Below are positions 5,234 to 41,872 of a stretch of DNA of 64,000 bases, in pieces (within the stretch, counting starts at the first letter, position 1; each line of letters starts with the position of its first letter). The translations under genes were made by a program, and so were the position numbers. Where the stretch lies: the NCBI GenBank assembly GCA_028688055.1, contig JAQTYZ010000001.1, positions 39,866-103,865 of the forward strand, in the 5' to 3' direction. Origin of the DNA: Patescibacteria group bacterium. GTDB taxonomy: Bacteria > Patescibacteriota > Patescibacteriia > Buchananbacterales > UBA6539. Below the pieces are notes generated by a model. That model did not search any database, was not told the DNA's origin, and saw nothing but the letters and a program-made list of their open reading frames with translations.

Positions 5234-5794
5234 CTAGGCGTCATTTTGATCACCGTTTGGGGGTGCCACAAAGTGCAATTTAATCTGTCCGGCCTCTGGT
5301 AAATAACGATAGATCGACGCCACGGTGGCAGCTTCAACTCCGAAGTGCTGCAACCCTGATGGATCGGTGATAATCACCGTTTGTCCAGGCAAAGTCGAAA
5401 CAATGGCGCGTAGGGCAATTCCAATCTCAACCGAAAACGAGTAGTGGTCACGAGGAATCTCAAAGCCACAGGCCATAATTATGGTTTGTGTTTGAGGCTT
5501 GTATACCTCAGCGGTACCGTACACCGGCGAAAAATGGGTTACCTTGTCGCGAAGACATAATAGCTTCGCCATATCAATGTGCCTTTGACCCACGCCGCAA
5601 CGGACATGGTGGATGTTTCTCGGTAAGCACTCCATGAGCCTTACAGTCCGTTTTAATCCGAGCGGTGTTAAAGCGGGATTTGGCTCGTTGGTGGAGATAT
5701 CGGCATGCGTTACAAAATAAATTGTCCTTGACAAAGGGCTGCCCTCCAATTGGTTTTTGTTTGTCCGGCTAAAACTTATCAGCAATTGTACCAT
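5234..5794 (-). CDS. Hypothetical protein in a GC-rich insert, possibly a histidine-phosphatase (SixA-like) fold with a degenerate RHG motif.
   Basis: IYFVTHAD...PLTPLGLKRTVRL resembles the SixA N-terminus (IMRHGDA...PLT.G), but R is replaced by T and G by A. GC is about 52% against a flank of about 38%. The gene sits on the minus strand between scpA and scpB. Confidence 0.3.
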   Translation of the reverse strand: MVQLLISFSRTNKNQLEGSPLSRTIYFVTHADISTNEPNPALTPLGLKRTVRLMECLPRNIHHVRCGVGQRHIDMAKLLCLRDKVTHFSPVYGTAEVYKPQTQTIIMACGFEIPRDHYSFSVEIGIALRAIVSTLPGQTVIITDPSGLQHFGVEAATVASIYRYLPEAGQIKLHFVAPPNGDQNDA

Positions 5795-5841
5795 CAGTCA
5801 ACCCTTTATTTTTTGCTAAATTATTGATATAATCGTTAGGT

Positions 5842-6399
5842 ATGTCAAAGTTAAAATCTAAAATTGAGAGCCTGCTATTTATCACCAACCAGCCATTTTC
5901 TTTTAAAAAATTGGCTGATATTACCAAATCGGAAAAGGCTGATGTTGGGAAGGCAGTTGAAGAGTTAATGACAGAATACAATAATGACGACAAGGGAATT
6001 CAGATTCAGAAAATTGACGATAAGGTTCAGATGGTGACCTCGGGCGAAAATTCAAAGTTGGTTAAAGATTTTATTAAAGAGGAGACCACTGGCGAACTGA
6101 CCCGCGCCTCGCTGGAAACTTTAACCATTATTGCTTATCGCGGGCCGATCAATCGGGCGGAGCTGGAACAAATCAGGGGAGTTAACTGCGCGGTGATTTT
6201 ACGAAATCTTTTAATGCGCGGTTTAGTTGAAGCGGCCGAAGATAAAAAGAAAATGCAAATGTCATATAGTATCACTTTAGATTTTTTGAAATTTTTGGGA
6301 ATTAACCAACAGTCGGAACTGCCCGATTATGCTAAATTGAATTCAAGTGAAAGCTTGTCTAAAATTTTGTCGTCACAAGCTTTACCGACGGCCGAGTAA
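5842..6399 (+). CDS. scpB: Segregation and condensation protein B
   Basis: LETLTIIAYRGPINRAELEQIRGVNCAVILRNLLMRGLV is the ScpB winged-helix signature. An extended -10 (TGaTATAAT) lies 7-13 nt upstream of the ATG, so the mRNA may be leaderless or have a very short leader. Confidence 0.8.
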   Translation: MSKLKSKIESLLFITNQPFSFKKLADITKSEKADVGKAVEELMTEYNNDDKGIQIQKIDDKVQMVTSGENSKLVKDFIKEETTGELTRASLETLTIIAYRGPINRAELEQIRGVNCAVILRNLLMRGLVEAAEDKKKMQMSYSITLDFLKFLGINQQSELPDYAKLNSSESLSKILSSQALPTAE

Positions 6400-6414
6400 A
6401 AGTGGAACTCGTTT

Positions 6415-7329
6415 ATGTTAAAATTAATTACTAGTCTGATTTTAGCCGGTCTGTTTTGGGGCAGCGGCTTTAACTTTTTTAACTCAGCTTCAGTTGATAA
6501 TTCATATTTAGCTGCTGGGTCTGATTTAGTATTGGCACCGACTCGAATTGTTAATGACAGTTTCGGCCTGAAGACGACCGCTAAAAGCATTGTGGTTGTT
6601 GACAAAGCGTCAGGGGCAATTTTGTATCATAAAAATCCCCAGGCGGTTTTGCCTATTGCGTCAATTACCAAGCTCGTTAACGCGCTGGTTTTTTTAGACA
6701 CCAATCCGGATTGGGATAAAGTTGTTGAAATAAACCAAGCTGATTTAGTCGCCGGTAACCGTTGGTATTTTTTTGCGGGCGAAAAAGTCAAACTTAGTGA
6801 GGTATTTAACGTAATGTTAGTTGCTTCCGCCAATGAAGCGGCACTGACGCTGGCTCGCTATTCTGGTGTTGATGATTATGTTACCGCGATGAATAATAAG
6901 GCCGCCGCATTAGGGATGACGGCTAGCCATTTCGCTGATCCCAGTGGACTTAATGTCGAAAATGTTTCGACCGCGACTGATTTAGTTAAGCTCGCGACAA
7001 CGGCTTTTTCGAAAACGGAAATAATTAGCGCGGTCACGGCTGAAAGTTTTGATTATAAAATTATTAATAATAGTCGACGGGGGCATGCCGTTAATACCGA
7101 CAATTTATTGAATAGTTTTCTTAACGCTGACCCTTACAGTTTGGCTGGTGCAAAAACTGGCTATCTTGACGAAGCCGGCTACTGCTTGCTAACGGAAGTT
7201 AAAAATAAAAATAAGGGCACCTTAATGATTGCTATCTTGGGAGCGACCTCGCCAACCGATCGCTGGCAAGAAGCTAAGGGTTTAGTTGACTGGGTTAATA
7301 ATAATTATAACTGGCCGACTGAAAATTAA
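6415..7329 (+). CDS. dacA: D-alanyl-D-alanine carboxypeptidase (PBP5/DacA family serine peptidase)
   Basis: SITK (SxxK), SAN (SxN) and KTG motifs occur in the canonical order. There is an N-terminal membrane or signal segment. Confidence 0.75.
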   Translation: MLKLITSLILAGLFWGSGFNFFNSASVDNSYLAAGSDLVLAPTRIVNDSFGLKTTAKSIVVVDKASGAILYHKNPQAVLPIASITKLVNALVFLDTNPDWDKVVEINQADLVAGNRWYFFAGEKVKLSEVFNVMLVASANEAALTLARYSGVDDYVTAMNNKAAALGMTASHFADPSGLNVENVSTATDLVKLATTAFSKTEIISAVTAESFDYKIINNSRRGHAVNTDNLLNSFLNADPYSLAGAKTGYLDEAGYCLLTEVKNKNKGTLMIAILGATSPTDRWQEAKGLVDWVNNNYNWPTEN

Positions 7330-7393
7330 TTTGAAGTTTGGTGGTTAAAATTGTATAATAATAAAGCTTAAATTGGTTGAAACTTGATCTACT

Positions 7394-8146
7394 ATGACCG
7401 AAAAAATTTTGGTAATTGCTAATTGGAAAATGAAGCTAGGCTTGCAGGAAAGTAAAGACTTGGCTGCTGTTTATAAAAAATTAGTTAAGTCTGAGGCCGA
7501 AGTTATTGTTTGTCCTACCTTTGTCAGCTTAGACGCTGTCGGCAAGGTGTTAGCCGGTAGCGGAATAAAATTAGGCGCTCAAGATTGCTTTTGGGAAAAA
7601 TCAGGTGCCTTCACCGGCGAAGTATCGGTTAGTGAAATTAAAGAAACCGGTGCGGCATTTGTTATTATTGGTCATTCCGAACGCCGCAAGTATCTAAATG
7701 AGACCGATGAAATAGTCCATGAAAAAACGAAGCTGGCAATTTCAGCTGCGCTAACGCCGATTATTTGTGTCGGTGAGACTTTTGACCAGCGACAGCAGGG
7801 CGCCAAGGATTATGTCTTAATTAATCAGACGACTAAGGCGGTTGAAGGTTTAGAAATTGAGGCTGGGCAGCAAGTGATCATTGCCTATGAACCGGTTTGG
7901 GTCATCGGTTCCGGTCAGGCGATTGAGCCTCAAGAAGCCGAGGCCGCTCATCAAGTCATTAGGCAAAGTTTGTTTGATTTATTTAGTGCCGAAACGGTAA
8001 AAAATAATTTTAGAATTGTGTACGGCGGCAGTGTCGACGGGCAAAATGTCCATACCTTTACTTGTCTAAATAATACGTCTGGTGTTTTGGTCGGCGGTGC
8101 CAGTTTGACGATTAATGATTTTGTCGCTATTATCAAAAATGTTTAA
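7394..8146 (+). CDS. tpiA: Triosephosphate isomerase
   Basis: Motifs ANWKM, IIGHSERR and YEPVWVIGSG are present. Confidence 0.9.
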   Translation: MTEKILVIANWKMKLGLQESKDLAAVYKKLVKSEAEVIVCPTFVSLDAVGKVLAGSGIKLGAQDCFWEKSGAFTGEVSVSEIKETGAAFVIIGHSERRKYLNETDEIVHEKTKLAISAALTPIICVGETFDQRQQGAKDYVLINQTTKAVEGLEIEAGQQVIIAYEPVWVIGSGQAIEPQEAEAAHQVIRQSLFDLFSAETVKNNFRIVYGGSVDGQNVHTFTCLNNTSGVLVGGASLTINDFVAIIKNV

Positions 8147-8193
8147 TCAAGCTATTCGTCGGTGGGTGACATTAGCTTTTTAGTTTTATTAAT

Positions 8194-9024
8194 ATGATTT
8201 TGTATCTTATCCCAGCGGTCCTGATTGTCCTGAGCGTTATTGCGCTTGGGTATGTTGTGATCAAGAATTTGCCAAAATTGAAGATTATCAACGTTGAGTC
8301 GATGCCGAAAGAAAAAGAAACAAAGGTGCGAAATAGAATTATGTTGGATCGACTAAGCCGAAAACTTATTAGTGTTAAAAAAACTTCACAAAAATTGGCC
8401 GCACCGATGGTCAAAAAAGTTTCCATTAAAGCCAATAAGTTTTATCAGCGGATGATTGATTTAGAGAAGAAAACGCTTGAGAACCAGCCCTTGAAGAAAA
8501 TTGACGTCACGCAAAAAATAAATGATGATTTGGCGGTTATCGAAAAATTAATTTCGGAAAAAAATTATGATCAAGCCGAAGAAATGTGTATTGACATTTT
8601 GCGCTTAGATGAAAAAAATTTGGATGTTTACGAGCATATGTCAGAAATTTATATTGCCCAAAGAGATTATAAAAAAGCGCGCGAAACTTCCAGATTTTTA
8701 CTGAAATTGTTGCAAAAACATGGCGCCGAAACGGACAAGCATCGCTTGGCTAACTGTTTTACGAATTTGGGGGGGATTTATCAGTTGGAGAACAGAAATA
8801 CCTTTGCCCTGACCAATTATCAGAAGGCGGTTGAGCTTGAACCAAACAACCCAAGATTCCTTGACTTGTTATTAAAAATCAGTATAATATTAAAGAATAA
8901 AAATCTGGCCTCTCAGGTTTTTAATACTTTAAAGGAAGCGGATCCGGATAATCAGAAATTGCCGGAAATTAAAGACGAAATAGATAATATCGCCGATCAG
9001 CCAGCGCCCCCCGCAGGGCAATAG
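8194..9024 (+). CDS. Membrane-anchored TPR-repeat protein
   Basis: It has an N-terminal TM helix followed by TPR-like repeats (YKKARETSRFLLKLL..., ALTNYQKAVELEPNNP). Confidence 0.5.
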   Translation: MILYLIPAVLIVLSVIALGYVVIKNLPKLKIINVESMPKEKETKVRNRIMLDRLSRKLISVKKTSQKLAAPMVKKVSIKANKFYQRMIDLEKKTLENQPLKKIDVTQKINDDLAVIEKLISEKNYDQAEEMCIDILRLDEKNLDVYEHMSEIYIAQRDYKKARETSRFLLKLLQKHGAETDKHRLANCFTNLGGIYQLENRNTFALTNYQKAVELEPNNPRFLDLLLKISIILKNKNLASQVFNTLKEADPDNQKLPEIKDEIDNIADQPAPPAGQ

Positions 9025-9035
9025 GTTGTCAACGC

Positions 9036-9111: not shown

Positions 9112-9113
9112 GT

Positions 9114-9199: not shown

Positions 9200-9238
9200 T
9201 GCCAGCATCATTCATAAGTATTACCTGCCATTGCCTAA

Positions 9239-9570: not shown

Positions 9571-9639
9571 CATATGGCGTATGGCAATTGGCGAATGGAT
9601 TTATCTATTGGCTACAAGCTATACGCTATTTGCTAATAT

Positions 9640-13846: not shown

Positions 13847-14431
13847 ATGGCCGAAACACCAGGTTTTGAAGAAAAATCTGACAATGAATTAGTTGCCTTA
13901 ACTCTGCAAAATCAGGATCATTTTTTACACCTGATGCGGCGATATGAGAGGCGGTTGCTTAGTTATATCATGAGAATTTCCGGTTTGTCTTTTGATGAAG
14001 CCCAGGATGTTTTACAGGATGTTTTTATCAAGGCTTATCAAAATTTAAATAGCTTTAATCAGGAATTAAAGTTTTCCTCTTGGATCTATCGGATTGCCCA
14101 TAATCAGACCATCAGTCAGTTTAGAAAAAATAAAGCGCGACCGCAAAGTATCGGCTTGGAGGTTAATGATCAAGTATTGAATAATTTGTCGGACGGCTTT
14201 GATGTTAATATCCACGTTGACCGCCATTTTTTAAAAGCACACGTCAGCGATGTTTTGGCGTCGCTGGATGAAAAATATCGAGAGATTTTAGTCCTCCGGT
14301 TTTTTGAAGAAAAAGATTATAAGGAAATTTCTGATATTTTAAAAAAACCGATGGGAACAGTTGCCGCTTTGCTTAATCGAGCTAAAACAAAATTTCGTCA
14401 GCAATTGGAAAGTCAAAATGAAATCAAGTAA
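13847..14431 (+). CDS. ECF-type RNA polymerase sigma factor (sigma-70 regions 2 and 4)
   Basis: Region 2 is DVFIKAYQNLNSFNQELKFSSWIYRIAHNQTISQFRK. Region 4 is YREILVLRFFEEKDYKEISDILKKPMGTVAALLNRAKTKFRQQ. Confidence 0.8.
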   Translation: MAETPGFEEKSDNELVALTLQNQDHFLHLMRRYERRLLSYIMRISGLSFDEAQDVLQDVFIKAYQNLNSFNQELKFSSWIYRIAHNQTISQFRKNKARPQSIGLEVNDQVLNNLSDGFDVNIHVDRHFLKAHVSDVLASLDEKYREILVLRFFEEKDYKEISDILKKPMGTVAALLNRAKTKFRQQLESQNEIK

Positions 14432-15170
14432 ATATATGGAACAGTCAGAAAATTTAAGTCAGAAGGTTTTAGAAAAAATAAAAACACAGCATCTCAGCCC
14501 AAAGCCGAGGTGGGAGTTTTTACTTAAAGACTACGTGGTGTGGTCATTCTTTGTGGTGGCTATTTTGGTCGGCAGTTTGGCGACCTCAGTTTTAATTTTT
14601 ATGGTTGACCACAATGATTGGGTCGACGATGACTTTAGAATTGGCTCCGTTCAAAATCTAATCTCAGATTTGCCGATTTTTTGGGCGGCCTTGGTACTTA
14701 TTTTCTTATTTGTTGCCTATTACAATTTCAAACATACGGACAAGGGTTATAAATTTAATCCTTTCAGCGTTGTCGCATCAAGCATCTTAATTAGCTTGGC
14801 GGTTGGTACCGCTGTTTATGCTACCGGCGGTGGCGAAAAATTAGAATCGGTATTTTATAACCGTATTCCATTTTATCGTCAGTTAATTAATAATGGCGGC
14901 TTTAGTTGGGCCGCCACTTCAGATCATCGTCTGGCCGGAACGGTTCAAGCCCAAAGAGACGGGGGTTTTATTCTGAGAGATTTTGGCGGCAAGGTTTGGC
15001 TGGTTTATTGGACCGAAAATGGCCCCGATATTAGATATGGTATCAGAGTAAAAATGATTGGTGATGTGCTATCACCAAATGAATTTAGGGCCGACCAGTT
15101 AAAACTTTATTTTAGGCCCCAGCATTATATTTCTAACACTCGAATTCAGCCACCGCCTGAAAGAAATTAG
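14418..15170 (+). CDS. Putative membrane-anchored anti-sigma factor
   Basis: It overlaps the sigma gene by 14 nt, and the start is taken at the ATG at 14418. A short cytoplasmic N-terminus is followed by several TM helices and a C-terminal extracytoplasmic domain. The anti-sigma assignment rests on genomic context. Confidence 0.4.
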   Translation: MKSSKYMEQSENLSQKVLEKIKTQHLSPKPRWEFLLKDYVVWSFFVVAILVGSLATSVLIFMVDHNDWVDDDFRIGSVQNLISDLPIFWAALVLIFLFVAYYNFKHTDKGYKFNPFSVVASSILISLAVGTAVYATGGGEKLESVFYNRIPFYRQLINNGGFSWAATSDHRLAGTVQAQRDGGFILRDFGGKVWLVYWTENGPDIRYGIRVKMIGDVLSPNEFRADQLKLYFRPQHYISNTRIQPPPERN

Positions 15171-15518
15171 TTGGCGGCGCGTATCATTATCTGTCAACAG
15201 CTTTCATTGCCGCCTAATTAATAAGCGCAAGGCAATGATCATTATCATATACCACTTGTTGGTAGATTTTTTCGGCCGGCTTCAAGGTGGGTCGGAGATA
15301 TCTAATATGGCGCTCGCGGCCGACAGCCCGCTAGCGCCGCCAAAAAACAACTAGTTTATTTCTTCATTGTCTGACTTCCGATATATTTTGTCGGCGTCCA
15401 TGTTCTTTCACTTAGCACCGACTGTTAATGAGTACTAGTTGGTGTGTCTAGGCTAGTTGATAAATCATAGCATATTGATTGGCCGGCCAAAAAATCGCTG
15501 TGATGGCGGTTTTTTGGT

Positions 15519-16373
15519 ATGATAAAGCTGACTATGAAAAAAGTTTTGACGGGTTTAATTATGCTCGCGTCAATACTTGCCGTTACCGATGTCAGCTTGA
15601 CGTTTTATTTTCAAAAGCTGGCTTATTCGGCGGTTCAAGATTTGGGAACAAAAACTGTTGACACCGCCGCTAAGCCGGCACCTGAGTCAAGACAGGCTCA
15701 TTTTCCAATTTTAGTTTTTCACCACATTCGTGACTATCAGCCAAGTGATACTAAAAATGATCGAACTTTTATTATCCCACCAGCGGATTTTGAAAAACAG
15801 TTGAAGTATTTATCGGACAACGATTATTCATTTATTACTATTAGCCAATTAGCCGATTATTTGGCTGGCGGCAACGACTTACCGCCTAAGCCAATTGCCA
15901 TTACTTTTGATGACGGTGATGTCAATCAATACACTAATGCTTTTCTAATTCTGAAAAAATATAATATTATTGCAACTTTTTATATTTTTGTAAATCCAAT
16001 CGGGGTCAGTAAAAATTATTTAACTTGGGAGGAAGTTAAAGCAATGTCTGATGCCGGTATGGAAATAGGCAGTCATGGTTGGTATCATCTTTTTTTAGAT
16101 AAATTGAGCGACGGCCAAGAACTAGCCGAAATTGATCAGGAAATTGTTAAAAGCCAAGCAATTATTGAACAACAACTGGGCCGACCAGTCGTTTCTTTCG
16201 GTTATCCATTTGGAACTTATAATGATGACGTTGTCGCTCGCATCAAGGCGGCTGGTTATAACTCGGCGCGGGGGATTGTCAATGGTAAAACTCATCGCTC
16301 GGACAGCCTTTTTAATTTAAAGGCCTATTTTATTACGGCTGATTTTGATCGTTTTATTAATCTCGTTAAGTGA
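15519..16373 (+). CDS. Polysaccharide deacetylase (NodB-homology, CE4 family) with an N-terminal TM anchor
   Basis: It carries the Asp-Asp motif ITFDDGDVNQ, the His motifs GSHGWYH and FGYPFG, and the LTWEE catalytic region. Confidence 0.75.
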   Translation: MIKLTMKKVLTGLIMLASILAVTDVSLTFYFQKLAYSAVQDLGTKTVDTAAKPAPESRQAHFPILVFHHIRDYQPSDTKNDRTFIIPPADFEKQLKYLSDNDYSFITISQLADYLAGGNDLPPKPIAITFDDGDVNQYTNAFLILKKYNIIATFYIFVNPIGVSKNYLTWEEVKAMSDAGMEIGSHGWYHLFLDKLSDGQELAEIDQEIVKSQAIIEQQLGRPVVSFGYPFGTYNDDVVARIKAAGYNSARGIVNGKTHRSDSLFNLKAYFITADFDRFINLVK

Positions 16374-17789: not shown

Positions 17790-18521
17790 ATGGTTAAAAA
17801 AGTTAAGAAAAATAAATCAAGTCATACCAGAGTACTTAATCTACCATCAATTAAGTTGCCAATTAAACCATTGACTCATCGTGATATTGACCGTGATATT
17901 CAAAGTCGGGTTTCTCGAATCGATGTTGAGTTTACTAATGGTTTTAATTTTATCAAAACCATTTCGCAGTCGGTAACTTTTTTTGGATCAGCTCGTTTAC
18001 CTAAAAAAGATCCGTATTACCAAAAAGCTGAACGGCTTGGCAAACGCATCGCGGCGATGGGGTATTCGGTTGTTACTGGTGGTGGGCCGGGAATTATGGA
18101 AGCGGCCAATCGCGGGGCTTTTAAGGAGAATAAAAATTATTCAGTTGGTTTAACGATACGTTTGCCTCGCGAGCAGGTTGTTAATCCATATATCAACAAT
18201 TATTATGAGTTTTATTATTTTTTTACGCGAAAAGTTTGCTTAACTTTTTCAGCTGAAGCCTATGTTTATTTCCCCGGCGGTTTTGGAACTTTAGATGAAT
18301 TTTTCGAAATTTTAACCTTGGTCCAAACTAATAAAATCGTCAAAGTGCCAATCATTTTAGTTGGTAAAGATTTTTGGCAGCCGCTTGATGATTTTATCAA
18401 AAAAACTTTGGCCAAAAAATATCAAACTATCCACGGCCAGGATCGCAATTTGTATATTATTACCGACGACGAAGATAAGATTATGGAGATTGTCAGCCAA
18501 GCGCCGATTAAACAATGGTAG
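17790..18521 (+). CDS. LOG-family protein (cytokinin riboside 5'-monophosphate phosphoribohydrolase-like, TIGR00730)
   Basis: Motifs VTGGGPGIMEAANRGA and PGGFGTLDE are present. The start is taken at the ATG at 17790, just after the upstream stop. Confidence 0.75.
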   Translation: MVKKVKKNKSSHTRVLNLPSIKLPIKPLTHRDIDRDIQSRVSRIDVEFTNGFNFIKTISQSVTFFGSARLPKKDPYYQKAERLGKRIAAMGYSVVTGGGPGIMEAANRGAFKENKNYSVGLTIRLPREQVVNPYINNYYEFYYFFTRKVCLTFSAEAYVYFPGGFGTLDEFFEILTLVQTNKIVKVPIILVGKDFWQPLDDFIKKTLAKKYQTIHGQDRNLYIITDDEDKIMEIVSQAPIKQW

Positions 18522-30906: not shown

Positions 30907-32199
30907 ATGAACAGAGACGGTCTAACAGTCTTGGTTATCGGCTCTGGTGGCCGAGAGGACGCCGTGTGCTGGAAATTGTCTCAGTCATCGTTGTTGAGAA
31001 AACTCTTTTGCGCTCCCGGTAATGCCGGCACCGCGCGCTGGGCAACCAATGTTGCCATTAAGGCAATCAATATTCAAGACCTGGTAACTTGGGCGATTGC
31101 CAACGGTGTCAATTTTGTTGTCGTCACGCCTGATGATCCGTTGGCGTTAGGCCTGGTTAATGCCTTTAACGAAGTCGGCATTATGGCATTTGGTCCGACG
31201 CTGGCCGCGGCGCAAATTGAAGCCTCAAAAGCTTACGCGGCTGAGGTAGAACAACGGTATCGAATTCCGATGCCGCACACTGTGTCGTTCAATGATTTTC
31301 CGAAAGCCCTTCGCTATTTGGATTTTTTGGCGCAAATCGGCGTGGAACGCTGTGTCGTTAAGGCTAGCGGTTTGGCGCTGGGCAAAGGTGCTTATCCTTG
31401 TCCAAGTCTCGGAGACGCGAGGTTAGTTTTATATCGCGTGATGATTGACAAGGTCAACGGTGCCGCCGGTGATACGGTGGTCATTCAGGAGTACCTTGAT
31501 GGTGCTGAACTTTCGGCTCACGCGTTTTGTGATGGCGAGACTGCAGTAATGATGCCGTGGTCGCGCGATTATAAACGTATCACCGATGAGGGCGGTGACA
31601 TGACTGGCGGTATGGGCTGTGATACTTATTCTGATCATATCACGCCACAACTAGCGGCGACCATCGAAAGTCAAATCGCCAAGCGTCTGTTGCAGGCGCT
31701 GCAAGCCGAAGAACGCCCGTTTAAGGGTGTGCTGTATCCGGGATTGATGCTGACCGAGCAAGGTCCCAAGGTGATTGAATTCAATTGCCGTTTCGGTGAT
31801 CCGGAAACGCAGGTCATTTTGCCGCGCCTTGAATCTGACTTGCTGGAGGTGATGTTCGCCTGTGTTAACGGTTCGTTAAGGAATCAGGAAGTCCGTTGGA
31901 ATGGCAAGCAGGTTGTGGCCGTTGTCCTGGCGTCGGCTGGTTATCCGGCTAGTAGGCAGATTGACGTGCCAATTTACGGAGTCAACGAAGCCGAAGCGCT
32001 TGAAGGTGTAACTATTTTTCATGCCGGTACTAAGCGCGACCATTCTGGTCAGCTGTTGACTAACGGCGGTCGTGTTTTGAATGTCACGGCCGAAGGCGAT
32101 GATTTAGCGCAGGCAACCGAGCGCGCTTATGGCGCCGTTGACTACATTAGTTTTGAAGGTATGCAATACCGAGAAAAAATCGGTAGCCGCTCATTCTAA
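30907..32199 (+). CDS. purD: Phosphoribosylamine--glycine ligase
   Basis: VLVIGSGGREDAVCWKL and the ATP-grasp core match PurD. GC is about 50-52%. The start is taken at the ATG at 30907 (MNRDGLTVLVIGSGGRE). Confidence 0.8.
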   Translation: MNRDGLTVLVIGSGGREDAVCWKLSQSSLLRKLFCAPGNAGTARWATNVAIKAINIQDLVTWAIANGVNFVVVTPDDPLALGLVNAFNEVGIMAFGPTLAAAQIEASKAYAAEVEQRYRIPMPHTVSFNDFPKALRYLDFLAQIGVERCVVKASGLALGKGAYPCPSLGDARLVLYRVMIDKVNGAAGDTVVIQEYLDGAELSAHAFCDGETAVMMPWSRDYKRITDEGGDMTGGMGCDTYSDHITPQLAATIESQIAKRLLQALQAEERPFKGVLYPGLMLTEQGPKVIEFNCRFGDPETQVILPRLESDLLEVMFACVNGSLRNQEVRWNGKQVVAVVLASAGYPASRQIDVPIYGVNEAEALEGVTIFHAGTKRDHSGQLLTNGGRVLNVTAEGDDLAQATERAYGAVDYISFEGMQYREKIGSRSF

Positions 32200-32221
32200 T
32201 GATACCGTTTGGTATCAAAAA

Positions 32222-32257
32222 CCGTAGCACCCCAAGGGGACTACGGCTTTTATTTTA
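32222..32257 (+). terminator. Bidirectional rho-independent terminator between purD and tRNA-Pro
   Basis: A GC-rich hairpin ccgtagcacccc-aa-ggggactacgg is followed by cttttatttta. On the opposite strand the A-tract tcaaaaa precedes it. Confidence 0.7.
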
Positions 32258-32265
32258 TTAATTTT

Positions 32266-32341
32266 TGGTCGGGCTGGCGGGATTTGAACCCACGACCTCA
32301 TCGTCCCGAACGATGCGCGCTACCAGCTGCGCTACAGCCCG
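32266..32341 (-). tRNA. tRNA-Pro (anticodon CGG)
   Basis: The reverse complement TCGGGCTGTAGCGCAGCTGGTAGCGCGCATCGTTCGGGACGATGAGGTCGTGGGTTCAAATCCCGCCAGCCCGACCA folds into a cloverleaf with anticodon loop TCGGGAC and T-arm GGTTCAAATCC. CCA is encoded. Confidence 0.85.
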
Positions 32342-32631
32342 ATACTCGATAATCTTAATAGCTAACTTAAACTATCTTTATAAATTCATTGGTTTCCGCG
32401 ATGAGTCCCGCTAAGTGTGGAGCTACAGCCCGAAGGAATAAAAGGTTAATAAATTTTACGGAGGAGGAGGGTCTTTATATGAGCTTGTAATCCCTGTCTA
32501 CAAGTTGTAACTATATTTTAGTTTAATGAGTTTGTAAAGTAAACGCAAATTGATTATTAAAAAAATTGTGGCCGCCGTCATCCTGGTTGGGAATCAAGCG
32601 GCCGTGGTGTGGAGTAGACGTAGTCAGTAGA

Positions 32632-33060
32632 CTACGTCAAATTGCTTCGCCGACTGAAGCCTGGTAGACGATTGATCGTCCAACCGAGCAAGATCAGTGT
32701 GAAGCTACCGGTGTACCAATACAGTACCTGAACGGTAGGGGTTTCTTGAGCTGGCTCAAAGAGCACACCGATGTAACCAACGAGGGAGAATACGATACCC
32801 CATTGTCGTTTCGGGTGCTCCATTTGCCAGTCAAGCCAGATGGCTAGCTGCTGTAGGAATCGGATGGTCAGATAGCTGATCGGCAGCAAGAGGGCGCCGA
32901 TAAAACTGATCTGACAAATCAGATTTGCCCCGATGACTACGGCGATCATTCCGATGGCGAATAGTGCCAGGCATATCTGGACGAGCCAGAACTGCTTGGA
33001 GTACCAGCCCCAGAATTCTGCCAATGTGCGGTCAATCATTCGACCAAAACGTTCGAACAT
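32632..33060 (-). CDS. Hypothetical membrane protein in a GC-rich block
   Basis: It is 142 aa with three or four TM helices. GC is about 52%. A strong SD (GGAGGAG) lies 7 nt upstream of the ATG, unlike neighbouring genes. Confidence 0.5.
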   Translation of the reverse strand: MFERFGRMIDRTLAEFWGWYSKQFWLVQICLALFAIGMIAVVIGANLICQISFIGALLLPISYLTIRFLQQLAIWLDWQMEHPKRQWGIVFSLVGYIGVLFEPAQETPTVQVLYWYTGSFTLILLGWTINRLPGFSRRSNLT

Positions 33061-33239
33061 GAGCCTTCTCCTCCGTGTTGAGCCGATATTAAATCGGCCT
33101 TAGTGACCCGTATACCCGAGAGTTGATACAAAAGAACATTTTTTAGTATAGCATAATTTTTAATTTTTGTCAATATTTTAGTACTTTGACCATCTTAGCT
33201 GAATAGAGGTAGAATTAAATAGCTTTAAAACGCTCAAAA

Positions 33240-34526: not shown

Positions 34527-34528
34527 TT

Positions 34529-37650: not shown

Positions 37651-38356
37651 TTCTATGCCCCGTGTCGATTTAGATCAGCGTCTATTAGACCGGGATTATT
37701 TGGCAGAACGTATTTTGCAGGTGAAAAAGAAACGGAAAAAAGGTAGCTGGAAATTTAAATTTTGCTGTTTGCCAATTGTTATATTTTTTTTGTCAGCCTT
37801 GATTTTTGGTGTGGTGGTTGTTGCCAAAATTGGTGTTTGGCAGATTCCGATTGCCTCGAAAATTTTTTATACTTTACCGACGCCAAGCCGAATTGTCGTG
37901 GTTAATAATCCGGCCAGCGTCGCCGCGAGTCAATTGAATGTCAGACCGGATGAATCAAACGGAGCGGCGACGCTGAGTATTTCCGAACAGCAGCTGACTT
38001 TTTTAATCAGGCAATCACTGACGGGCAAATCCAGCTCGGTCTTTGCGCCAAGCTTGCAAGCTGTTATTAATCCTGATAATATTGAATTTTTCGGCCTGAT
38101 GGTTAAACCCGCCGCGCTAAATGTTAAGCTAAAAATCTTGCCGTTCGTCGAAAATAATAAATTTAAGTTTCGTATTGTTGAGGCGACCATTGGCAACCTG
38201 TCGTTGCCGGCGGTTTTGGCCCGTTGGTTTATTGATAAGTATTTGCCTTTGCCGTTAGCTAGTATCAGCAATATGTATCCGCAGTTGCCGTTGCGCGACA
38301 TTAAATTGGAACACGGCCAGCTGAATTTTATCTTTTCCTTAAACAATTCACAGTAA
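37640..38356 (+). CDS. Hypothetical membrane-anchored protein
   Basis: A basic N-terminus and one TM helix are followed by a beta-rich domain. It is downstream of the pilin gene. Confidence 0.35.
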   Translation: MFVNSMPRVDLDQRLLDRDYLAERILQVKKKRKKGSWKFKFCCLPIVIFFLSALIFGVVVVAKIGVWQIPIASKIFYTLPTPSRIVVVNNPASVAASQLNVRPDESNGAATLSISEQQLTFLIRQSLTGKSSSVFAPSLQAVINPDNIEFFGLMVKPAALNVKLKILPFVENNKFKFRIVEATIGNLSLPAVLARWFIDKYLPLPLASISNMYPQLPLRDIKLEHGQLNFIFSLNNSQ

Positions 38357-38369
38357 GCTTAGAATAAAA

Positions 38370-39140
38370 ATGCTACAAAAAATTATCAATCGTTTAATCC
38401 CAATGGCTGTACCGGTGTCAATCTTTTTTTTGGTTGAGGAAGTTTATCGCAATCCAAAATGGCTGTATTCAATTGCCGCCATTATTTTAGTCGTCGTTTT
38501 TGTCGGGGTTTGGCAGCTAACTGGCCGCCACCTCATCAGTCAAAAATTTTGGCGTTTTGTCATTACGCCGGTGCTCTTTTCGGCCGGCGCAATCCTTTAT
38601 CTAATTTTTTTAAAAAGCGAATTGTTGAAGCAGCTTTTTTTATTAGGTTTTGTCATTATGAGTTGGATATCGCTGGAAGTGATTTTTTTGCGTTTTAATT
38701 TCAGGCCCAAGTACCAGGTCCATTCGCTGGAAAATATTTTTACTCATCTGGATATTATTACCATTTTTTTAATCACGAGCGGTTTGTATAGCTTCATTGC
38801 TTTTTTGGGTTTTGATTTATGGACCATGTTGGCGATTTTGACAGCGGTGGTTTTGGCCCTTTCTTATCAATTGATTTGGACTAGCGATGCGACCATTGTT
38901 TCCGGGGCCCCATATTCATTAGTTATCACTTTAACGGTGGCTGAAACATTTTTGGCGGTAAGCTATTTACCCACTAGTGTCTATGTCGGCGGAATGATGG
39001 TATCCTTAAGTTATTATTGTATTGGCGGCTTGTCGCGCAATTGGTTATTGGGTAATCGCGAAGCCAAAGTCGTTCGGCGTTATTTGGTGACCGGTGCCAT
39101 TCTCGCCGTTTTAGTTTTAGCCACCGCTAAATGGTTTTAA
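38370..39140 (+). CDS. Hypothetical polytopic membrane protein
   Basis: About eight predicted TM helices. Confidence 0.35.
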   Translation: MLQKIINRLIPMAVPVSIFFLVEEVYRNPKWLYSIAAIILVVVFVGVWQLTGRHLISQKFWRFVITPVLFSAGAILYLIFLKSELLKQLFLLGFVIMSWISLEVIFLRFNFRPKYQVHSLENIFTHLDIITIFLITSGLYSFIAFLGFDLWTMLAILTAVVLALSYQLIWTSDATIVSGAPYSLVITLTVAETFLAVSYLPTSVYVGGMMVSLSYYCIGGLSRNWLLGNREAKVVRRYLVTGAILAVLVLATAKWF

Positions 39141-39141
39141 G

Positions 39142-40302
39142 ATGAAATTTTTAAACAACAAAAAAGGTGATCGGATTTCCGACGTGATAATTCTGGCGTT
39201 GATTTTTGGCTTTGCCGCCGGGGTAGTTGGTGAGATCGTCGCTGATGTTTACATTAACCCGTGGCAAACCGATTTTGCTTTCAACGATGTTAATCAGGTC
39301 GTGCCGGTAAATAACATCCCCGAATTGCGTCGCGTGAAGACATTTTTGGGTATTGAACAAGATTTTCAAGTCAATAGTGCTGTTACTAAGGCCGCGCCCG
39401 CGCTGGCCGGTATTTATCAAAAAAAATCTCTGGCCCCAAGTCCGGTGAATCAAATTTACCTGCCTAAAGATTTATTAGCCTCTTCTTTTATTTTAACTTC
39501 TGACGGCTGGCTGGTTAGCGTCGGCCAAGGTTTAGCTGATTATAAAAGTGATCAGTTGATTGTATCTTTCAATAACATCGTTTATCCAGTTATCAAAAAA
39601 ATAACCGACCCGGTAACAGGAGTAGCCTTCATCAAAATTAATGATAATAATTTACCAGTCGTACTGCTCGGTGACTCTGATGCACTGACACTAGGGCAGG
39701 TTGTCGTGGTGCTTAATTCGCTCAATCAAGTTTCCGTCAGCACCATTAAAGATGCTAATTATTCAAATGTGTTGACTCAGCAAGACTTGGTTCAGTCTTC
39801 AGATGCTTATGCTAAGTCAATTTTGCTTTCCGACGCTATTGCAAAATCAAACATTGGTAGTCCGGTTTTGAATTTAGGGGGCGAAGTAATTGGCCTAATC
39901 AAACCGATTGATAATGATAAAACTTTGACAGAAGTTTTACCCTTGAACAGCTTCAAAAATATTTTGATTAATATCCTCCGCACCGGTTTAGCCAAGCGTC
40001 CGACGCTTGGTGTAAAATATCTTGACTTATCACAGGCAGTTGGCCTTGATCCGGCCGCTTCTAATGGTTTAACTAAAGGGGCGTTGCTTACTGAAAAACC
40101 AGCCAAAAATTCAGCTGCTGCGGCCGCTGGTTTATTGGTTAATGATATTATAACGGCGGTTAATGGCAATCCCGTCGATGAGTCAAATAGCTTGAGTGAT
40201 TTAATTCTAAGTTATAAGCCAGCCGATAAATTGGAGCTAGATCTTATTCGAAATGGTTCGCCAATTCAGGTGGCAGTTACGTTGTTAGAAAATTCAAAGT
40301 AA
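39142..40302 (+). CDS. HtrA/DegP-like trypsin-fold protein with a C-terminal PDZ domain and all three catalytic residues replaced (predicted pseudoprotease)
   Basis: GDSDALTLGQVVVV aligns with DegP ADSDALRVGDYTVA. SDAIAKSNIGSPVLNLGGEVIGLI aligns with [25 protein letters not shown]. In these alignments His aligns to Gln, Asp aligns to Gly (DPVTGVAFIKI against DPRSDIALIQI) and Ser aligns to Ile. There is an N-terminal TM anchor. Confidence 0.6.
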   Translation: MKFLNNKKGDRISDVIILALIFGFAAGVVGEIVADVYINPWQTDFAFNDVNQVVPVNNIPELRRVKTFLGIEQDFQVNSAVTKAAPALAGIYQKKSLAPSPVNQIYLPKDLLASSFILTSDGWLVSVGQGLADYKSDQLIVSFNNIVYPVIKKITDPVTGVAFIKINDNNLPVVLLGDSDALTLGQVVVVLNSLNQVSVSTIKDANYSNVLTQQDLVQSSDAYAKSILLSDAIAKSNIGSPVLNLGGEVIGLIKPIDNDKTLTEVLPLNSFKNILINILRTGLAKRPTLGVKYLDLSQAVGLDPAASNGLTKGALLTEKPAKNSAAAAAGLLVNDIITAVNGNPVDESNSLSDLILSYKPADKLELDLIRNGSPIQVAVTLLENSK

Positions 40303-40375
40303 AAAAAGAAACGCAGGAGTTTTCCCTAACTAGGATAGCCCATGCGTTTTTGTTTTTCTTCAGTCCTCGGCGGTT

Positions 40376-41872
40376 TTACGCCGGAACCTCAATGAAGTCT
40401 GCTTCGGCTGGACCAGTACTGACCCGATCAATCACAATCGGTTCGGTGGCGCCGATGTTGAGTACGCCTTCGACCAGTTTTATGTAGTCTTTGGCCGCCT
40501 TCGGCAATTTCTGCCAGTCAGTCAGGCCGCGAATATCTTCAGTCCAGCCACTACAGGTCAAATAGCTGACGCCGACTTGCCCAATTAGTGTTGAGTCATC
40601 CGTCATGAAAAAGATTTCCCTGCCATTAAGCGTCCAACAACGGCCAACTTTGAGTTCGGGTTCTCCCGAAAGGGCATCGAGCTTAGCCAGCGTGACTTTG
40701 GTCACGCCATTAAGGCGGCAACCGGTTCTGGCAATGACACTGTCAAACCAGCCGATGTTGCGCACCCGTCCGGTGGTTGCGCCTTGCTCGTCGTCGACTC
40801 TTCGTTTGGTTGGATCAGTCGATCCTTGAAGTCGACGTGATAAGTCGTTTTCGAACTGCGTCGGAAATCCACCGGAGCCGACTTTGGACATAAATGCCTT
40901 GGCAACGCCACGGACTTCTCGAACCATCGTCGGTCCGATGCCAATGCCGACGCAAACGCCGCCGGCGGTGGTGTGAGACGAAGTCACATTTGGGTAACTT
41001 CCGAAGTCAATGTCGAGAGCCGAACCTTGGGCACCTTCGAAGAGAATTGCCCCGCCGGACTGTAATGTCCGGTGTGCCAATTCGCAGACGTCGCCAATGA
41101 TGCCTAGTGCGACGATTTGTTGTCGGAGGCTTTCATAGTATTCGACGAGAGCATCGGGCAGAAACTTGACGTAGTCAAGCGGGTGACAGAATCGACTGTA
41201 GTCAAATTCCGTCGCTTTGACGCGACCGCCCTCAATGAGTTTGGCGTTGGCGCGACGATCCTTTTCTTCCAGCTTGCGGAAGATTGCTTTCCAATCGGCA
41301 ACGGCAATGCCGCTCGCGGCAAACAGTCGCGTTTTTTCCTCAAGTTGGCGCCGAAGATGGGCCTCGAATCTTTGCGCGTCAAGCAGTTCGTGCGCATGAA
41401 TTGCCGTCCGGCTAGCCTTGTCGGCGTAAGTCGGGCCAATCCCTTGAGCGGTGGTGCCAACTTGACTGCCGCTCTTAGCCTTGAGCCACTCTTCCACCAT
41501 ATCCTGAATTCGGTGATAAATCATCGTCAGGCAACAACGGCCGTCGAGCATTAGTCGCGGTATCGGGTCAATGCCAAAACTTCGCACCGATTCGATTTCA
41601 TGAAGCAGGGCCGAAGGACTAATAATTGCTCCGGCACCAACAGCGGACAGGACTTCGCCAACCGAAATGGCTGACGGCAGAGCATGAAGCACGAGCGGCT
41701 CAACCTGGCCAGTCAAGAGGTTTAGCGTCATGGTCGTGTGACCCGCATTGTTGCCGCCTTGACCTCGGACCACAAGCTGATACAATCCTGATCTGGCACG
41801 TCGATAAGACTCCGTGCCCTTGCTTTCGTCACCGTACTGAATGCCGGTGAGCACGTCTACTAATCTTGACAC
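40376..41872 (-). CDS. purA: Adenylosuccinate synthetase
   Basis: QYGDESKG, NNAGHT, GTTAQGIGPTYADK, NVTSSHTTAGG and GATTGR are present. It uses a GTG start with the SD AGGAG 8 nt upstream. GC is about 58%. Confidence 0.85.
   Translation of the reverse strand: MSRLVDVLTGIQYGDESKGTESYRRARSGLYQLVVRGQGGNNAGHTTMTLNLLTGQVEPLVLHALPSAISVGEVLSAVGAGAIISPSALLHEIESVRSFGIDPIPRLMLDGRCCLTMIYHRIQDMVEEWLKAKSGSQVGTTAQGIGPTYADKASRTAIHAHELLDAQRFEAHLRRQLEEKTRLFAASGIAVADWKAIFRKLEEKDRRANAKLIEGGRVKATEFDYSRFCHPLDYVKFLPDALVEYYESLRQQIVALGIIGDVCELAHRTLQSGGAILFEGAQGSALDIDFGSYPNVTSSHTTAGGVCVGIGIGPTMVREVRGVAKAFMSKVGSGGFPTQFENDLSRRLQGSTDPTKRRVDDEQGATTGRVRNIGWFDSVIARTGCRLNGVTKVTLAKLDALSGEPELKVGRCWTLNGREIFFMTDDSTLIGQVGVSYLTCSGWTEDIRGLTDWQKLPKAAKDYIKLVEGVLNIGATEPIVIDRVSTGPAEADFIEVPA

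What the first reader, a model, noticed from the sequence alone, without database searches (positions are those of the whole stretch)
5234..41872. Five GC-rich islets carrying nucleotide-metabolism genes (pyrB-pyrI, purD, purA) and unknown genes in an otherwise AT-rich genome
Spot GC counts are about 50% for pyrB-pyrI, 52% for 5234..5794, 50% for purD, 52% for 32632..33060 and 53-63% for purA, against about 32-42% for flanking genes. Islet genes carry strong SDs (GGAGGAG, AGGAG with a GTG start), unlike most host genes. The purD block ends in a GC-rich hairpin terminator next to tRNA-Pro. purA is adjacent to an excisionase-like HTH_17 gene. This pattern suggests repeated horizontal acquisition of isolated purine and pyrimidine pathway steps by an organism that probably cannot make nucleotides de novo. 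Lone purD and lone ATCase are metabolically odd and may serve non-canonical roles.
Basis: seen in the sequence. Interest (0 to 1): 0.6.

Follow-up and report, generated by a model that had tools for sequence, protein, structure and literature searches.

The report
Old GC-rich nucleotide-gene islets, Shine-Dalgarno-led
Six genes in this AT-rich, tiny-genome bacterium (three of them nucleotide-synthesis enzymes) really are GC-rich and foreign-looking, but relatives carry them at the same sites with the same oddities, so they are old residents with a stably kept signature, not recent imports.

Summary
After correcting for amino-acid content they still carry a third-position GC surplus of +0.11 to +0.19 (z 3-7).

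They also differ in other ways:
- canonical Shine-Dalgarno (SD) sites in 5 of 6, against 1 of 55 host genes
- their own near-consensus promoters
- frequent reversed orientation

- The fused PyrB-PyrI, PurD and PurA sit at the same syntenic positions in related Patescibacteria ("Ca. Buchananbacteria"-like).
- Their divergence from those relatives (42-79% identity) matches that of their neighbours.
- They keep the GC surplus (in all but one lineage) and the SD there, although synonymous sites have turned over more than once.
- No donor is identifiable. PyrBI has only five homologs, all Patescibacteria. PurA is at most 37% identical to anything outside its three-member clade. PurD's named nearest hits are all Patescibacteria.
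- Two relatives keep pyrK-pyrD beside pyrBI, which suggests loss rather than piecemeal gain.

Only two small genes are lineage-specific insertions: a 4-TM protein and a histidine-phosphatase-fold protein. Why the signature persists is unexplained.

The parts
1..1549 (+). Fused PyrB-PyrI aspartate carbamoyltransferase. The window holds the C-terminal 516 of 548 residues; the start lies about 97 nt upstream of the window. GC 51%.
   Evidence: Pfam OTCace_N, OTCace, PyrI and PyrI_C all above their cut-offs. Full gene in L002 1285-2931. Catalytic and Zn-Cys4 residues are invariant in the 5-member family. GGAGGT SD is invariant in 4 lineages.
1681..1941 (-). Conserved small gene (86 aa, function unknown) convergent with pyrBI. 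GC 53%, AGGAG SD 9 nt upstream of the ATG.
   Evidence: tblastn homologs at the same position and strand in L005, L099 and L007. SD found. Promoter-like site 2021..1993, 10/12 matches. The plus-strand ORF 1561..2004 has no homologs.
5234..5734 (-). Histidine-phosphatase-fold protein. Likely 166 aa from TTG 5734 with a GGAGG SD; the ORF extends to 5794. GC 48%. Inserted between scpA and scpB.
   Evidence: 91 homologs of about 165 aa begin at query residue about 21. 7 of 30 members give weak His_Phos_1 hits. AF2 model pLDDT 87. Foldseek matches RosC, SixA and PGAM5 with probability 1.0. ScpA-ScpB are adjacent in L099. Promoter 5848..5820, 11/12. Terminator hairpin.
30907..32199 (+). purD (phosphoribosylamine-glycine ligase, 430 aa). 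GC 52%, weak SD AAGGA.
   Evidence: GARS_N, GARS_A and GARS_C E 1e-28 to 1e-54. 77% ortholog at the same site in L003. GC3 excess z=4.8.
32215..32262 (+). Intrinsic terminator of purD: hairpin CCGTAG..CTACGG followed by a T-run.
   Evidence: Sequence. Folds at -16.3 kcal/mol, z -2.7. Conserved in L003.
32266..32341 (-). tRNA-Pro(CGG), bordering the purD and orf142 islets.
   Evidence: ARAGORN and Rfam. Also present in L003.
32409..32433 (.). Partial direct repeat of the 5' end of tRNA-Pro (exact GCTACAGCCCGA). Lies at the edge of the segment that differs from L003.
   Evidence: Repeat family D2. Conserved in L003; homology with L003 breaks off just after it.
32632..33060 (-). orf142, a predicted multi-pass membrane protein. 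GC 51%, GC3 0.62, SD GGAGGAG. Lineage-specific.
   Evidence: GC3 excess +0.195, z 5.2. Absent from L003, which has a different 73-aa membrane ORF in the slot. Promoter 33173..33145, 11/12 with TG. No Pfam, PHROG or viral relatives.
40376..41872 (-). purA (adenylosuccinate synthetase, 498 aa, with a roughly 50-aa insertion at about residues 186-236). GC 54.5%, GTG start, SD AGGAG.
   Evidence: Pfam 351 bits. Motifs and insertion seen against PDB 4m0g. Orthologs at 79% and 43% at the same site in L003 and L004. GC3 excess z 7.1.
41944..41972 (-). purA promoter-like site TTGACA-17-TATTAT.
   Evidence: 11/12 match. Conserved in L003.
41987..42265 (-). HTH_17 DNA-binding protein (92 aa). Context gene of host-like composition, not part of the islet.
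   Evidence: Pfam HTH_17. GC 36.9%. 96% and 76% identical in L003 and L004.

Best explanation
The islets are six separate, self-contained transcription units. Each has a sigma-70-like promoter, all but purD have a canonical SD of 5 nt or more at 5-9 nt spacing (purD has only AAGGA), and purD and orf186 end in clear intrinsic terminators. They are embedded in the SD-poor, AT-rich, co-oriented gene array of a Parcubacteria-type Patescibacterium close to 'Ca. Buchananbacteria'.

Four of them were already at these positions in the common ancestor of several lineages and have been inherited vertically since: the fused PyrB-PyrI ATCase, its small convergent partner ORF, PurD and PurA.

My inference is that they entered that ancestor from an SD-using, GC-richer source, or together as larger pyr and pur clusters, and that this lineage later lost neighbours such as pyrK-pyrD. 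What looks like isolated pathway steps would then be remnants.

Their GC surplus has two parts. One is a normal, enzyme-like amino-acid composition in a genome whose other proteins have drifted towards AT-rich codons. The other is a synonymous bias: NNC for F, Y, N, I, D and H; AAG for Lys; avoidance of TTA.

The synonymous part and the SD have persisted through more than one substitution per synonymous site. They are therefore being maintained, most likely by selection on how these mRNAs are translated or stabilised, and are not decaying as a recent-transfer scar would.

Only orf142 and the histidine-phosphatase-fold gene are lineage-specific insertions.

Shown: composition, SD, synteny, co-divergence and intact catalytic motifs. 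Inferred: the ancient foreign origin, gene loss, and selection as the maintaining force.
For: Composition and codon tests.

Synteny of purA (HtrA|purA|HTH_17|sigma) in L003 and L004, and of purD in L003.

Synteny of pyrBI (RuvX-RecO-[pyrK-pyrD]-pyrBI-small ORF-AspRS..ScpA) in L005/L009, L007/L008 and L099.

Co-divergence with flanks:
- PurA 79% and 43%, against flanks 48-96% and 32-78%.
- PyrBI 51% and 43%, against flanks 50-78% and 37-75%.

The same GC3 surplus in orthologs:
- L003 PurA +0.161, PurD +0.118.
- L004 PurA +0.084.
- L007 PyrBI +0.161.
- L099 PyrBI +0.187.

Four-fold-site divergence between the window and its closest relative is already about 1.1-1.2 substitutions per site.

Ribosomal-protein genes show no such bias.

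SD of 5 nt or more in 16 of 21 islet genes against 7 of 141 host genes across six lineages, p=8e-13. GGAGGT before pyrBI is invariant.

The three enzymes share a dinucleotide signature. They are 0.058-0.088 from each other and 0.11-0.19 from the host.

No donor is identifiable.

Catalytic residues are intact.

GC-ending codons are not rarer at variable sites (0.50 against 0.42), which argues against ongoing AT-ward decay.

Independent Logan assemblies reproduce the junctions.
Against: - In L005/L009 the pyrK-pyrD-pyrBI genes have no synonymous GC surplus. Maintenance is therefore not universal.
- An ancient foreign origin is not demonstrated. No donor clade was found, and PurD's best named hits are Patescibacteria.
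- The force that would maintain the GC surplus is not identified. The pattern does not fit translational-accuracy selection, the host's highly-expressed-gene usage, or plain biased gene conversion, since Glu, Gln, Arg and Ala codons are unchanged.
- The amelioration argument rests on rough divergence estimates from saturated sites and on a handful of loci.
- Relatedness was judged from identities, not trees.
Confidence: 0.5

Rival explanations
1. Each islet is a separate, relatively recent horizontal acquisition of an isolated pathway step. Its GC, codon usage and SD are un-ameliorated donor features.
For: - Atypical GC, GC3, dinucleotide signature, SD and strand.
- tRNA-Pro and a partial tRNA repeat lie next to purD and orf142.
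- orf142 and orf186 are missing from relatives' syntenic sites.
- The window's PurA is only 30% identical to the PurA of another Patescibacterium, L017, so purA is not uniformly vertical across the phylum.
Against: - The enzymes are syntenic and co-diverged in lineages down to 42-43% identity.
- No donor is closer than 37% (PurA) or 27% (PyrBI) identity.
- No integrase or att-type flanking repeats were seen.
- HTH_17 is a conserved host-like gene.
- The surplus is equal in lineages separated by more than one synonymous substitution per site.
Confidence: 0.08
2. The genes were never foreign. They are ancestral Patescibacterial genes forming a specialised expression class. The class has SD-dependent initiation and GC-rich, NNC-biased, UA-poor mRNAs. 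Its composition is held by selection, for example conditional translation or mRNA stability, while the rest of the genome drifted AT-rich and lost its SDs.
For: - SD and GC surplus are conserved in orthologs.
- An unrelated Patescibacterial contig (L018) shows the same link. Its three strong SDs sit on purD and two other GC-richer genes.
- PurD's best named hits are all Patescibacteria.
- A more distant fused PyrBI exists in other Patescibacteria, L010-L012.
- Variable sites are not AT-shifted.
Against: - The minus-strand placement of 4 of 6 genes and the non-host dinucleotide signature look like insertions.
- L005 lacks the synonymous surplus.
- The pur genes of L017 lack SDs.
- There is no expression data, and the 16S anti-SD status is unknown.
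Confidence: 0.27
3. Ordinary explanation. Conserved enzymes are simply richer in Gly, Ala, Arg and Pro, or are highly expressed, which makes them GC-rich in an AT-rich genome.
For: - Amino-acid composition explains about 25-70% of the surplus (expected GC 0.43-0.48 against a host mean of 0.395).
- purD in another Patescibacterium is +8.6% GC with no synonymous excess.
- The 1238-aa ORF is fully explained this way.
Against: - A GC3 excess of z 3-7 remains after correcting for composition.
- Other conserved enzymes in the window (AspRS, TpiA, UvrD, UGDH, SDR) show none.
- Ribosomal-protein genes in relatives show none.
- In 27 control loci, purD exceeds its neighbours by a median of about +1.7%, maximum +8.6%, against +12% here.
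- This explanation does not account for the SDs.
Confidence: 0.1
4. Artefact: chimeric assembly or binning contamination.
For: The source is a metagenome-assembled genome. One Logan contig ends exactly at the 3' end of purA.
Against: - Logan re-assembly reproduces the RecO-pyrBI-AspRS, ScpA-orf186-ScpB and HTH_17-purA junctions.
- The same junctions occur in four other samples and assemblies.
Confidence: 0.02

Closest known systems
Horizontally acquired genes or genomic islands recognised by atypical GC and codon usage (amelioration framework of Lawrence and Ochman 1997, as cited in PMC12455944, which also reports HGT of nucleotide-metabolism genes into Patescibacteria)
   Same: Sharp GC and GC3 steps at gene borders, non-host dinucleotide signature, own promoters and SDs, orientation against the local gene array, and tRNA adjacency for one pair.
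   Different: No integrase or att sites. Each unit is a single gene. The enzymes are syntenic and co-diverged across lineages at 42-79% identity. The signature is not decaying. No donor is detectable.
Fused catalytic-regulatory ATCase (PyrBI) of Thermotoga maritima (Chen et al. 1998, cited in PMC4581275)
   Same: PyrB and PyrI domains in one polypeptide. The Zn-binding Cys4 and the carbamoyl-phosphate and aspartate binding residues are kept.
   Different: At most 27% identical to canonical ATCases. Only five homologs among 5.8 billion proteins, all Patescibacteria. The relationship to the Thermotoga fusion was not tested.
SD-blind Bacteroidia ribosomes with a few conserved SD-bearing genes such as rpsU (PMC7797042, PMC9976891), and loss of the anti-SD motif in about half of Parcubacteria 16S rRNAs (PMC9297842)
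   Same: A genome in which almost no gene has an SD, including ribosomal-protein genes, but a small conserved set carries strong canonical SDs.
   Different: Here the SD-bearing set is nucleotide-metabolism and small accessory genes, and they are also GC-rich. Whether this organism has an anti-SD, or sequesters it, is unknown.
Complete and remnant purine gene sets in other Patescibacteria (L017: purL/Q/E/C/F/N/D/B/M-guaB-purA-purH operon; L018: lone purD)
   Same: purD at 48-50% identity. A lone purD with a strong SD and raised GC recurs in L018.
   Different: The window's PurA belongs to a separate three-member clade with its own insertion (30% identity to the L017 PurA). The L017 operon genes lack SDs.

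Membership tests
Aspartate carbamoyltransferase, catalytic chain (PyrB) | OTCace_N and OTCace domains above Pfam gathering scores | tested here: met
   36.7 bits against a cut-off of 29.9, and 34.8 against 29.4. The margins are weak because the protein is very divergent.
Aspartate carbamoyltransferase, catalytic chain (PyrB) | Carbamoyl-phosphate and aspartate binding residues: S-x-R-T, K84-equivalent, R105-equivalent, H-P-T-Q, R167-, R229- and Q231-equivalents, P-L of the HPLP loop | tested here: met
   S60 S61 R62 T63, K91, R113, H153-P-T-Q156, R217, R272 and Q312-P-L314 are invariant in the 5-member alignment. Placement is supported by alignments to PDB ATCases. Assignment of the E. coli equivalents is my own reading. 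The His of HPLP is replaced.
ATCase regulatory chain (PyrI) | Allosteric domain plus a Zn domain with four Cys | tested here: met
   PyrI 29.4 bits against 25, and PyrI_C 38.6 against 23.4. C499, C504, C528 and C531 are invariant. The best PDB match is the Sulfolobus regulatory chain 1pg5_B, E 3e-13.
Phosphoribosylamine-glycine ligase (PurD) | GARS_N, GARS_A (ATP-grasp) and GARS_C domains, full length | tested here: met
   E 7e-33, 9.5e-54 and 9e-28, covering whole profiles. 112 invariant columns shared with 11 homologs.
Adenylosuccinate synthetase (PurA) | Full-length Adenylsucc_synt match with the GDExKG P-loop, GGxNAGHT, (T/A)KLD and TTGR motifs | tested here: met
   351 bits. The motifs GDESKG, GGNNAGHT, AKLD and GATTGR are seen in the sequence and in the alignment to 4m0g, which also places the roughly 50-aa insertion.
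Mobile genomic island (integrative element) | Integrase, recombinase or transposase gene in or beside the island | tested here: not met
   None among the Pfam-scanned products around the islets. HTH_17 alone gives only weak excisionase-like PHROG hits, E 8e-4.
Mobile genomic island (integrative element) | Flanking direct repeats (att), typically a duplicated tRNA end | tested here: inconclusive
   A 25-nt partial repeat of the tRNA-Pro 5' end lies at 32409-32433. It is conserved in L003 and has no second boundary copy. The 16-nt inverted repeat around orf142 is within chance expectation.
Mobile genomic island (integrative element) | Presence or absence polymorphism among close relatives | tested here: not met
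   Not met for purA, purD, pyrBI and the 86-aa ORF, which are present and syntenic in relatives. Met only for orf142 and orf186.
Histidine phosphatase superfamily, branch 1 (for 5234..5734) | Phosphoglycerate-mutase-like fold | tested here: met
   AF2 model pLDDT 87, pTM 0.81. Foldseek probability 1.0 to RosC, SixA, PGAM5 and alr0221, TM 0.5-0.59.
Histidine phosphatase superfamily, branch 1 (for 5234..5734) | Catalytic RHG motif | tested here: not met
   The family has V-T-H-G and the window protein T-H-A, so the Arg is replaced. A conserved G-T-G-R-R-H follows. Pfam His_Phos_1 hits are below threshold, best E 1e-3.

The most novel reading that the evidence does not exclude
In SD-poor Parcubacteria, a small conserved set of genes forms a distinct translation class. 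Here the set is ATCase, PurD, PurA and a few accessory genes.

The class is marked by strong canonical SDs and by GC-rich, NNC-biased, UA-poor coding sequence, and selection maintains it over deep divergence.

By analogy with rpsU in SD-blind Bacteroidia, these mRNAs would be translated or stabilised only under particular ribosome or RNase states. One such state could be nucleotide starvation after loss of host supply.

If so, the 'foreign' signature would be a regulatory device rather than a relic of transfer.
Probability: 0.2. Interest if true: 0.75.

Novelty: new variant of a known kind. Interest (0 to 1): 0.5.

Why it matters
Atypical GC, codon usage and SD presence are routinely read as marks of recent horizontal transfer. 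Here the same marks are stable across orthologs that have diverged to 42-79% identity. If this is general, composition-based HGT calls in Patescibacteria would be misleading, and something other than mutation pressure sets the composition of these genes.

It also singles out which nucleotide-metabolism enzymes a reduced symbiont keeps: a unique fused ATCase, a lone PurD and an insertion-bearing PurA.

It links them to the open question of how translation starts in Parcubacteria, many of which lack the anti-SD motif. Conserved SDs there would be either paradoxical or a sign of specialised translation.

Tried and rejected
1. Rfam on the whole window found only five tRNAs, so no structured RNA explains any islet. 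The longer GC-rich purA leader in L004 matches no Rfam family and does not fold better than shuffles.
2. I tested whether 5193..5841 is a decayed LOG gene, because relatives have LOG-like genes after scpA. There is no similarity and the plus-strand frames are full of stops.
3. The highly-expressed-gene signature is rejected using ribosomal-protein genes of L005, L007 and L099.
4. Translational-accuracy selection (Akashi-type test) is not supported and trends the opposite way.
5. Plain GC-biased conversion or a generic donor GC shift is unlikely, because Glu, Gln, Arg, Ala, Ser and Cys codon choice is host-like.
6. Phage origin of orf142 and orf186: no PHROG hits, and no viral-contig relatives of orf142. 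The viral scan with the orf186 family alignment could not run.
7. The inverted repeat flanking orf142 (I3) is about what chance gives in 2.6 kb, by my estimate.
8. The L017 PurA (502 aa) is not the same long subtype: 30% identity and a different insertion site.
9. Literature searches found no report of SD or GC-rich gene classes in Patescibacteria.
That single job was then used for orf186.

Full report
**What the window is**

The window is 40.8% GC. It carries about 64 genes, almost all on the plus strand. They are typical of a Patescibacterium (CPR): type IV pilus genes, glycosyltransferases, ScpA/B, AspRS and a tRNA cluster. Exact-match look-ups name the source as an NCBI MAG, 'Patescibacteria group bacterium', on a 309-kb contig. 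The closest named relatives are 'Candidatus Buchananbacteria' MAGs.

**Observation check**

Six genes, not five, exceed every one of 58 other genes in GC:

| Gene | Coordinates | GC |
|---|---|---|
| fused PyrB-PyrI | 1..1549 | 51.2% |
| small ORF | 1681..1950(-) | 53.3% |
| orf186 | 5234..5794(-) | 48.3% |
| purD | 30907..32199 | 51.9% |
| orf142 | 32632..33060(-) | 51.3% |
| purA | 40376..41872(-) | 54.5% |
| 58 host genes | | mean 39.5%, sd 3.2, max 47.2% |

- The GC steps coincide with gene ends.
- I computed the GC3 expected from each protein's amino-acid content and the host's codon preferences. The islets keep an excess of +0.107 to +0.195 (z 3.1-7.1). Most host genes stay within +/-0.06.
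- Depending on the gene, amino-acid composition explains about 25-70% of the GC surplus and synonymous choice the rest.
- The 47%-GC 1238-aa ORF at 44158..47874 is explained entirely by amino-acid composition.
- The synonymous shift is specific. C-ending codons rise for Phe, Tyr, Asn, Ile, Asp and His; AAG rises for Lys; TTA is avoided. Glu, Gln, Arg, Ala, Ser and Cys codons stay host-like.
- The GC-normalised dinucleotide signature of the three enzymes is closer between them (0.058-0.088) than to the host (0.11-0.19; host chunks 0.076 +/- 0.042).
- Four of the six genes are on the minus strand, against 2 of 58 host genes (p=3e-4).
- In a control survey of 27 unrelated purD loci, purD exceeded its neighbours by a median of about +1.7% GC, maximum +8.6%. 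Here the figure is +12%.

**Expression signals**

- Host genes have AT-rich leaders without SD. Only 1 of 55 has a match of 5 nt or more.
- The islet genes read as follows:
  - pyrBI: GGAGGT
  - the 86-aa ORF: AGGAG
  - the histidine-phosphatase-fold gene: GGAGG. Homologs show its true start is TTG 5734, giving 166 aa.
  - orf142: GGAGGAG
  - purA: AGGAG
  - purD: only AAGGA
- All lie 5-9 nt before the start codon. The contrast is significant at p=6e-6.
- Each minus-strand islet gene also has a near-consensus TTGACA-17-TAnnnT site upstream.
- purD and orf186 end in clear intrinsic terminators.

**What the genes are**

- **PyrB-PyrI.** The first ORF is a single polypeptide, 548 aa in the Logan contig L002. 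All four Pfam domains are above threshold. Carbamoyl-phosphate and aspartate binding residues and the Zn-Cys4 site are invariant in its family. Its best PDB matches are only E 1e-13 to 1e-9. Fusion of the two chains is known from Thermotoga maritima (Chen 1998, via PMC4581275).
- **The stretch after it (1561..2004).** This is not pyrI. The conserved gene there is an 86-aa ORF on the minus strand, with homologs at the same place in L005, L099 and L007.
- **purD.** Canonical.
- **purA.** Has all its motifs plus a roughly 50-aa insertion.
- **orf186.**
  - It belongs to a family of about 165-aa proteins with 91 cluster representatives.
  - An AlphaFold model (pLDDT 87) matches histidine phosphatases such as RosC, SixA and PGAM5.
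  - The Arg of the RHG motif is replaced.
- **orf142.** A small hydrophobic protein with no relatives found.

**Are they recent imports?**

- PurA has only two close relatives among 5.8 billion proteins, at 79% and 43% identity. Everything else is at most 37%.
- Both relatives sit in the same slot, HtrA | purA | HTH_17 | sigma factor | DUF5667. The 79% relative also has purD between DUF6938 and tRNA-Pro-MgsA.
- PyrBI has five homologs, all Patescibacteria, at 42-51%. The next hit is 27%.
- All PyrBI homologs lie in the order: ribosomal-protein operon, SecY, Adk, Map, RuvX, RecO, pyrBI, small ORF, AspRS ... ScpA. In two lineages pyrK-pyrD sit directly upstream of pyrBI.
- Islet proteins have diverged in step with their neighbours.
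- PurD's best hits are 47-51% identical. Every one that carries a name is a Patescibacterium: Paceibacterota, Minisyncoccia or Doudnabacteria.
- One Minisyncoccia contig has a complete pur operon. Another Patescibacterium has a lone purD, like this one.
- The enzymes are therefore old residents. The ATCase looks like the remnant of a larger pyr cluster.
- The HTH_17 gene is host-like in GC and 96% and 76% conserved, and no integrase was seen among the products scanned. It does not mark a mobile element.
- orf142 is replaced by a different 73-aa membrane ORF in L003.
- scpA and scpB are directly adjacent in L099. orf142 and orf186 are therefore lineage-specific insertions.

**Persistence of the signature**

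The composition-corrected GC3 surplus recurs in the orthologs:

| Locus | Gene | GC3 surplus | z |
|---|---|---|---|
| L003 | PurA | +0.161 | 7.6 |
| L003 | PurD | +0.118 | 5.3 |
| L004 | PurA | +0.084 | 4.2 |
| L007 | PyrBI | +0.161 | 8.3 |
| L099 | PyrBI | +0.187 | 9.7 |
| L099 | PyrK | +0.115 | 4.2 |
| L005 | PyrK, PyrD, PyrBI | about 0 (+0.019, +0.032, -0.041) | 0.7, 1.2, -2.1 |

- Ribosomal-protein genes in L005, L007 and L099 are at or below expectation and lack the NNC preference. This is not the host's high-expression usage.
- Between the window and its closest relative, four-fold sites in purA and purD already differ by about 1.1-1.2 substitutions per site, like host genes. The surplus is nevertheless the same in both.
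- By my rough two-state calculation, neutral decay towards host composition from a single transfer predating the 43%-identity relative would have erased the surplus.
- GC-ending codons are slightly more frequent at variable than at conserved residues (0.50 against 0.42, p=0.012). This argues against both ongoing decay and translational-accuracy selection.
- The SD is conserved too. 16 of 21 islet genes against 7 of 141 host genes across six lineages have an SD of 5 nt or more (p=8e-13). GGAGGT before pyrBI is invariant in four lineages.
- In the unrelated contig L018, the three strong SDs sit on purD and two other GC-richer genes.
- Tsurumaki et al. (PMC9297842) found the anti-SD motif in only 48% of Parcubacteria 16S rRNAs. 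No 16S is available for this organism, so the meaning of the conserved SDs stays open.

**Conclusion**

- The composition, codon and SD anomalies are real and highly significant.
- For the three enzymes and the small partner ORF they are stably inherited properties of old, syntenic, lineage-specific genes. They are not scars of recent transfer.
- I favour an ancient foreign origin followed by vertical descent, loss of neighbouring pathway genes, and active maintenance of the signature (confidence about 0.5).
- The main rival is that these are ancestral genes forming a specialised SD-dependent expression class (about 0.27).
- Recent repeated HGT remains credible only for orf142 and the histidine-phosphatase-fold gene.
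- Whether the genome lacks the rest of the pathways cannot be judged from this window.

Noticed in passing
window 42477..47874 (sigma factor, DUF5667 protein, 1238-aa ORF) against L003 3999..9384: These three adjacent genes have far lower four-fold-site divergence from L003 (0.51, 0.73 and 0.37 substitutions per site) than other genes (about 1-3). This could mean recent recombination between the two lineages or strong synonymous constraint. The 1238-aa protein has no Pfam domain and is rich in Thr, Ser, Ala, Gly and Val.
   Followed up: no
window 61396..62493: An AT-rich outlier in the glycosyltransferase cluster: GC 31.5%, GC3 0.10 below expectation (z -4.3). Its neighbours at 60846..61439 and 62497..63198 are also low (z -2.7 and -2.3). 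It may be a separate low-GC acquired block.
   Followed up: no
window 32409..32433 and 32443..33140: A partial copy of the 5' end of tRNA-Pro lies 91 nt from the gene and is conserved in L003. The sequence just beyond it is a variable slot holding different small membrane ORFs in the two lineages, orf142 here and a 73-aa ORF in L003, both with AGGAG-type SDs.
   Followed up: partly
window 32458..32473 and 33061..33076: A 16-nt inverted repeat (ACGGAGGAGGAGGGTC / GAGCCTTCTCCTCCGT) brackets orf142, and both arms contain SD-like GGAGGAG. By my estimate this is roughly what chance gives in 2.6 kb.
   Followed up: partly
window 17790..18521; L005 17216..17983; L007 15567..16136: The window has a host-like (37% GC) LOG/Lysine_decarbox-family gene. 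Relatives carry GC-richer LOG-like genes right after scpA, the same slot where the window has the histidine-phosphatase-fold gene. The scpA-scpB junction seems to be a recurrent insertion site for nucleotide-related genes. L005 also has two NAPRT genes there.
   Followed up: partly
L004 2510..2735: The purA leader in the most distant relative is about 120 nt longer and GC-rich. It has no Rfam match and does not fold better than shuffled sequence.
   Followed up: yes
window 58914 (start of the 342-aa ORF) and 63597: These are the only host-composition gene starts in the window with a good SD: GGAGGTG within the end of the upstream glycosyltransferase gene, and GGAGG before a TTG ORF that runs off the window. 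They hint that the ribosome may still read SDs.
   Followed up: no
L001 (Logan contig SRR22315507_339034): The independent assembly breaks exactly at the 3' end of purA, 6 nt from the contig end. This could reflect a coverage or strain-variation boundary at the purA/HtrA junction.
   Followed up: no
L018 6246..7730, 13946..14851, 15458..16003: In an unrelated Patescibacterial contig with a lone purD, three genes without Pfam hits are also GC-richer than their neighbours. Two of them carry strong SDs (AGGAGGT, AGGAGG).
   Followed up: partly
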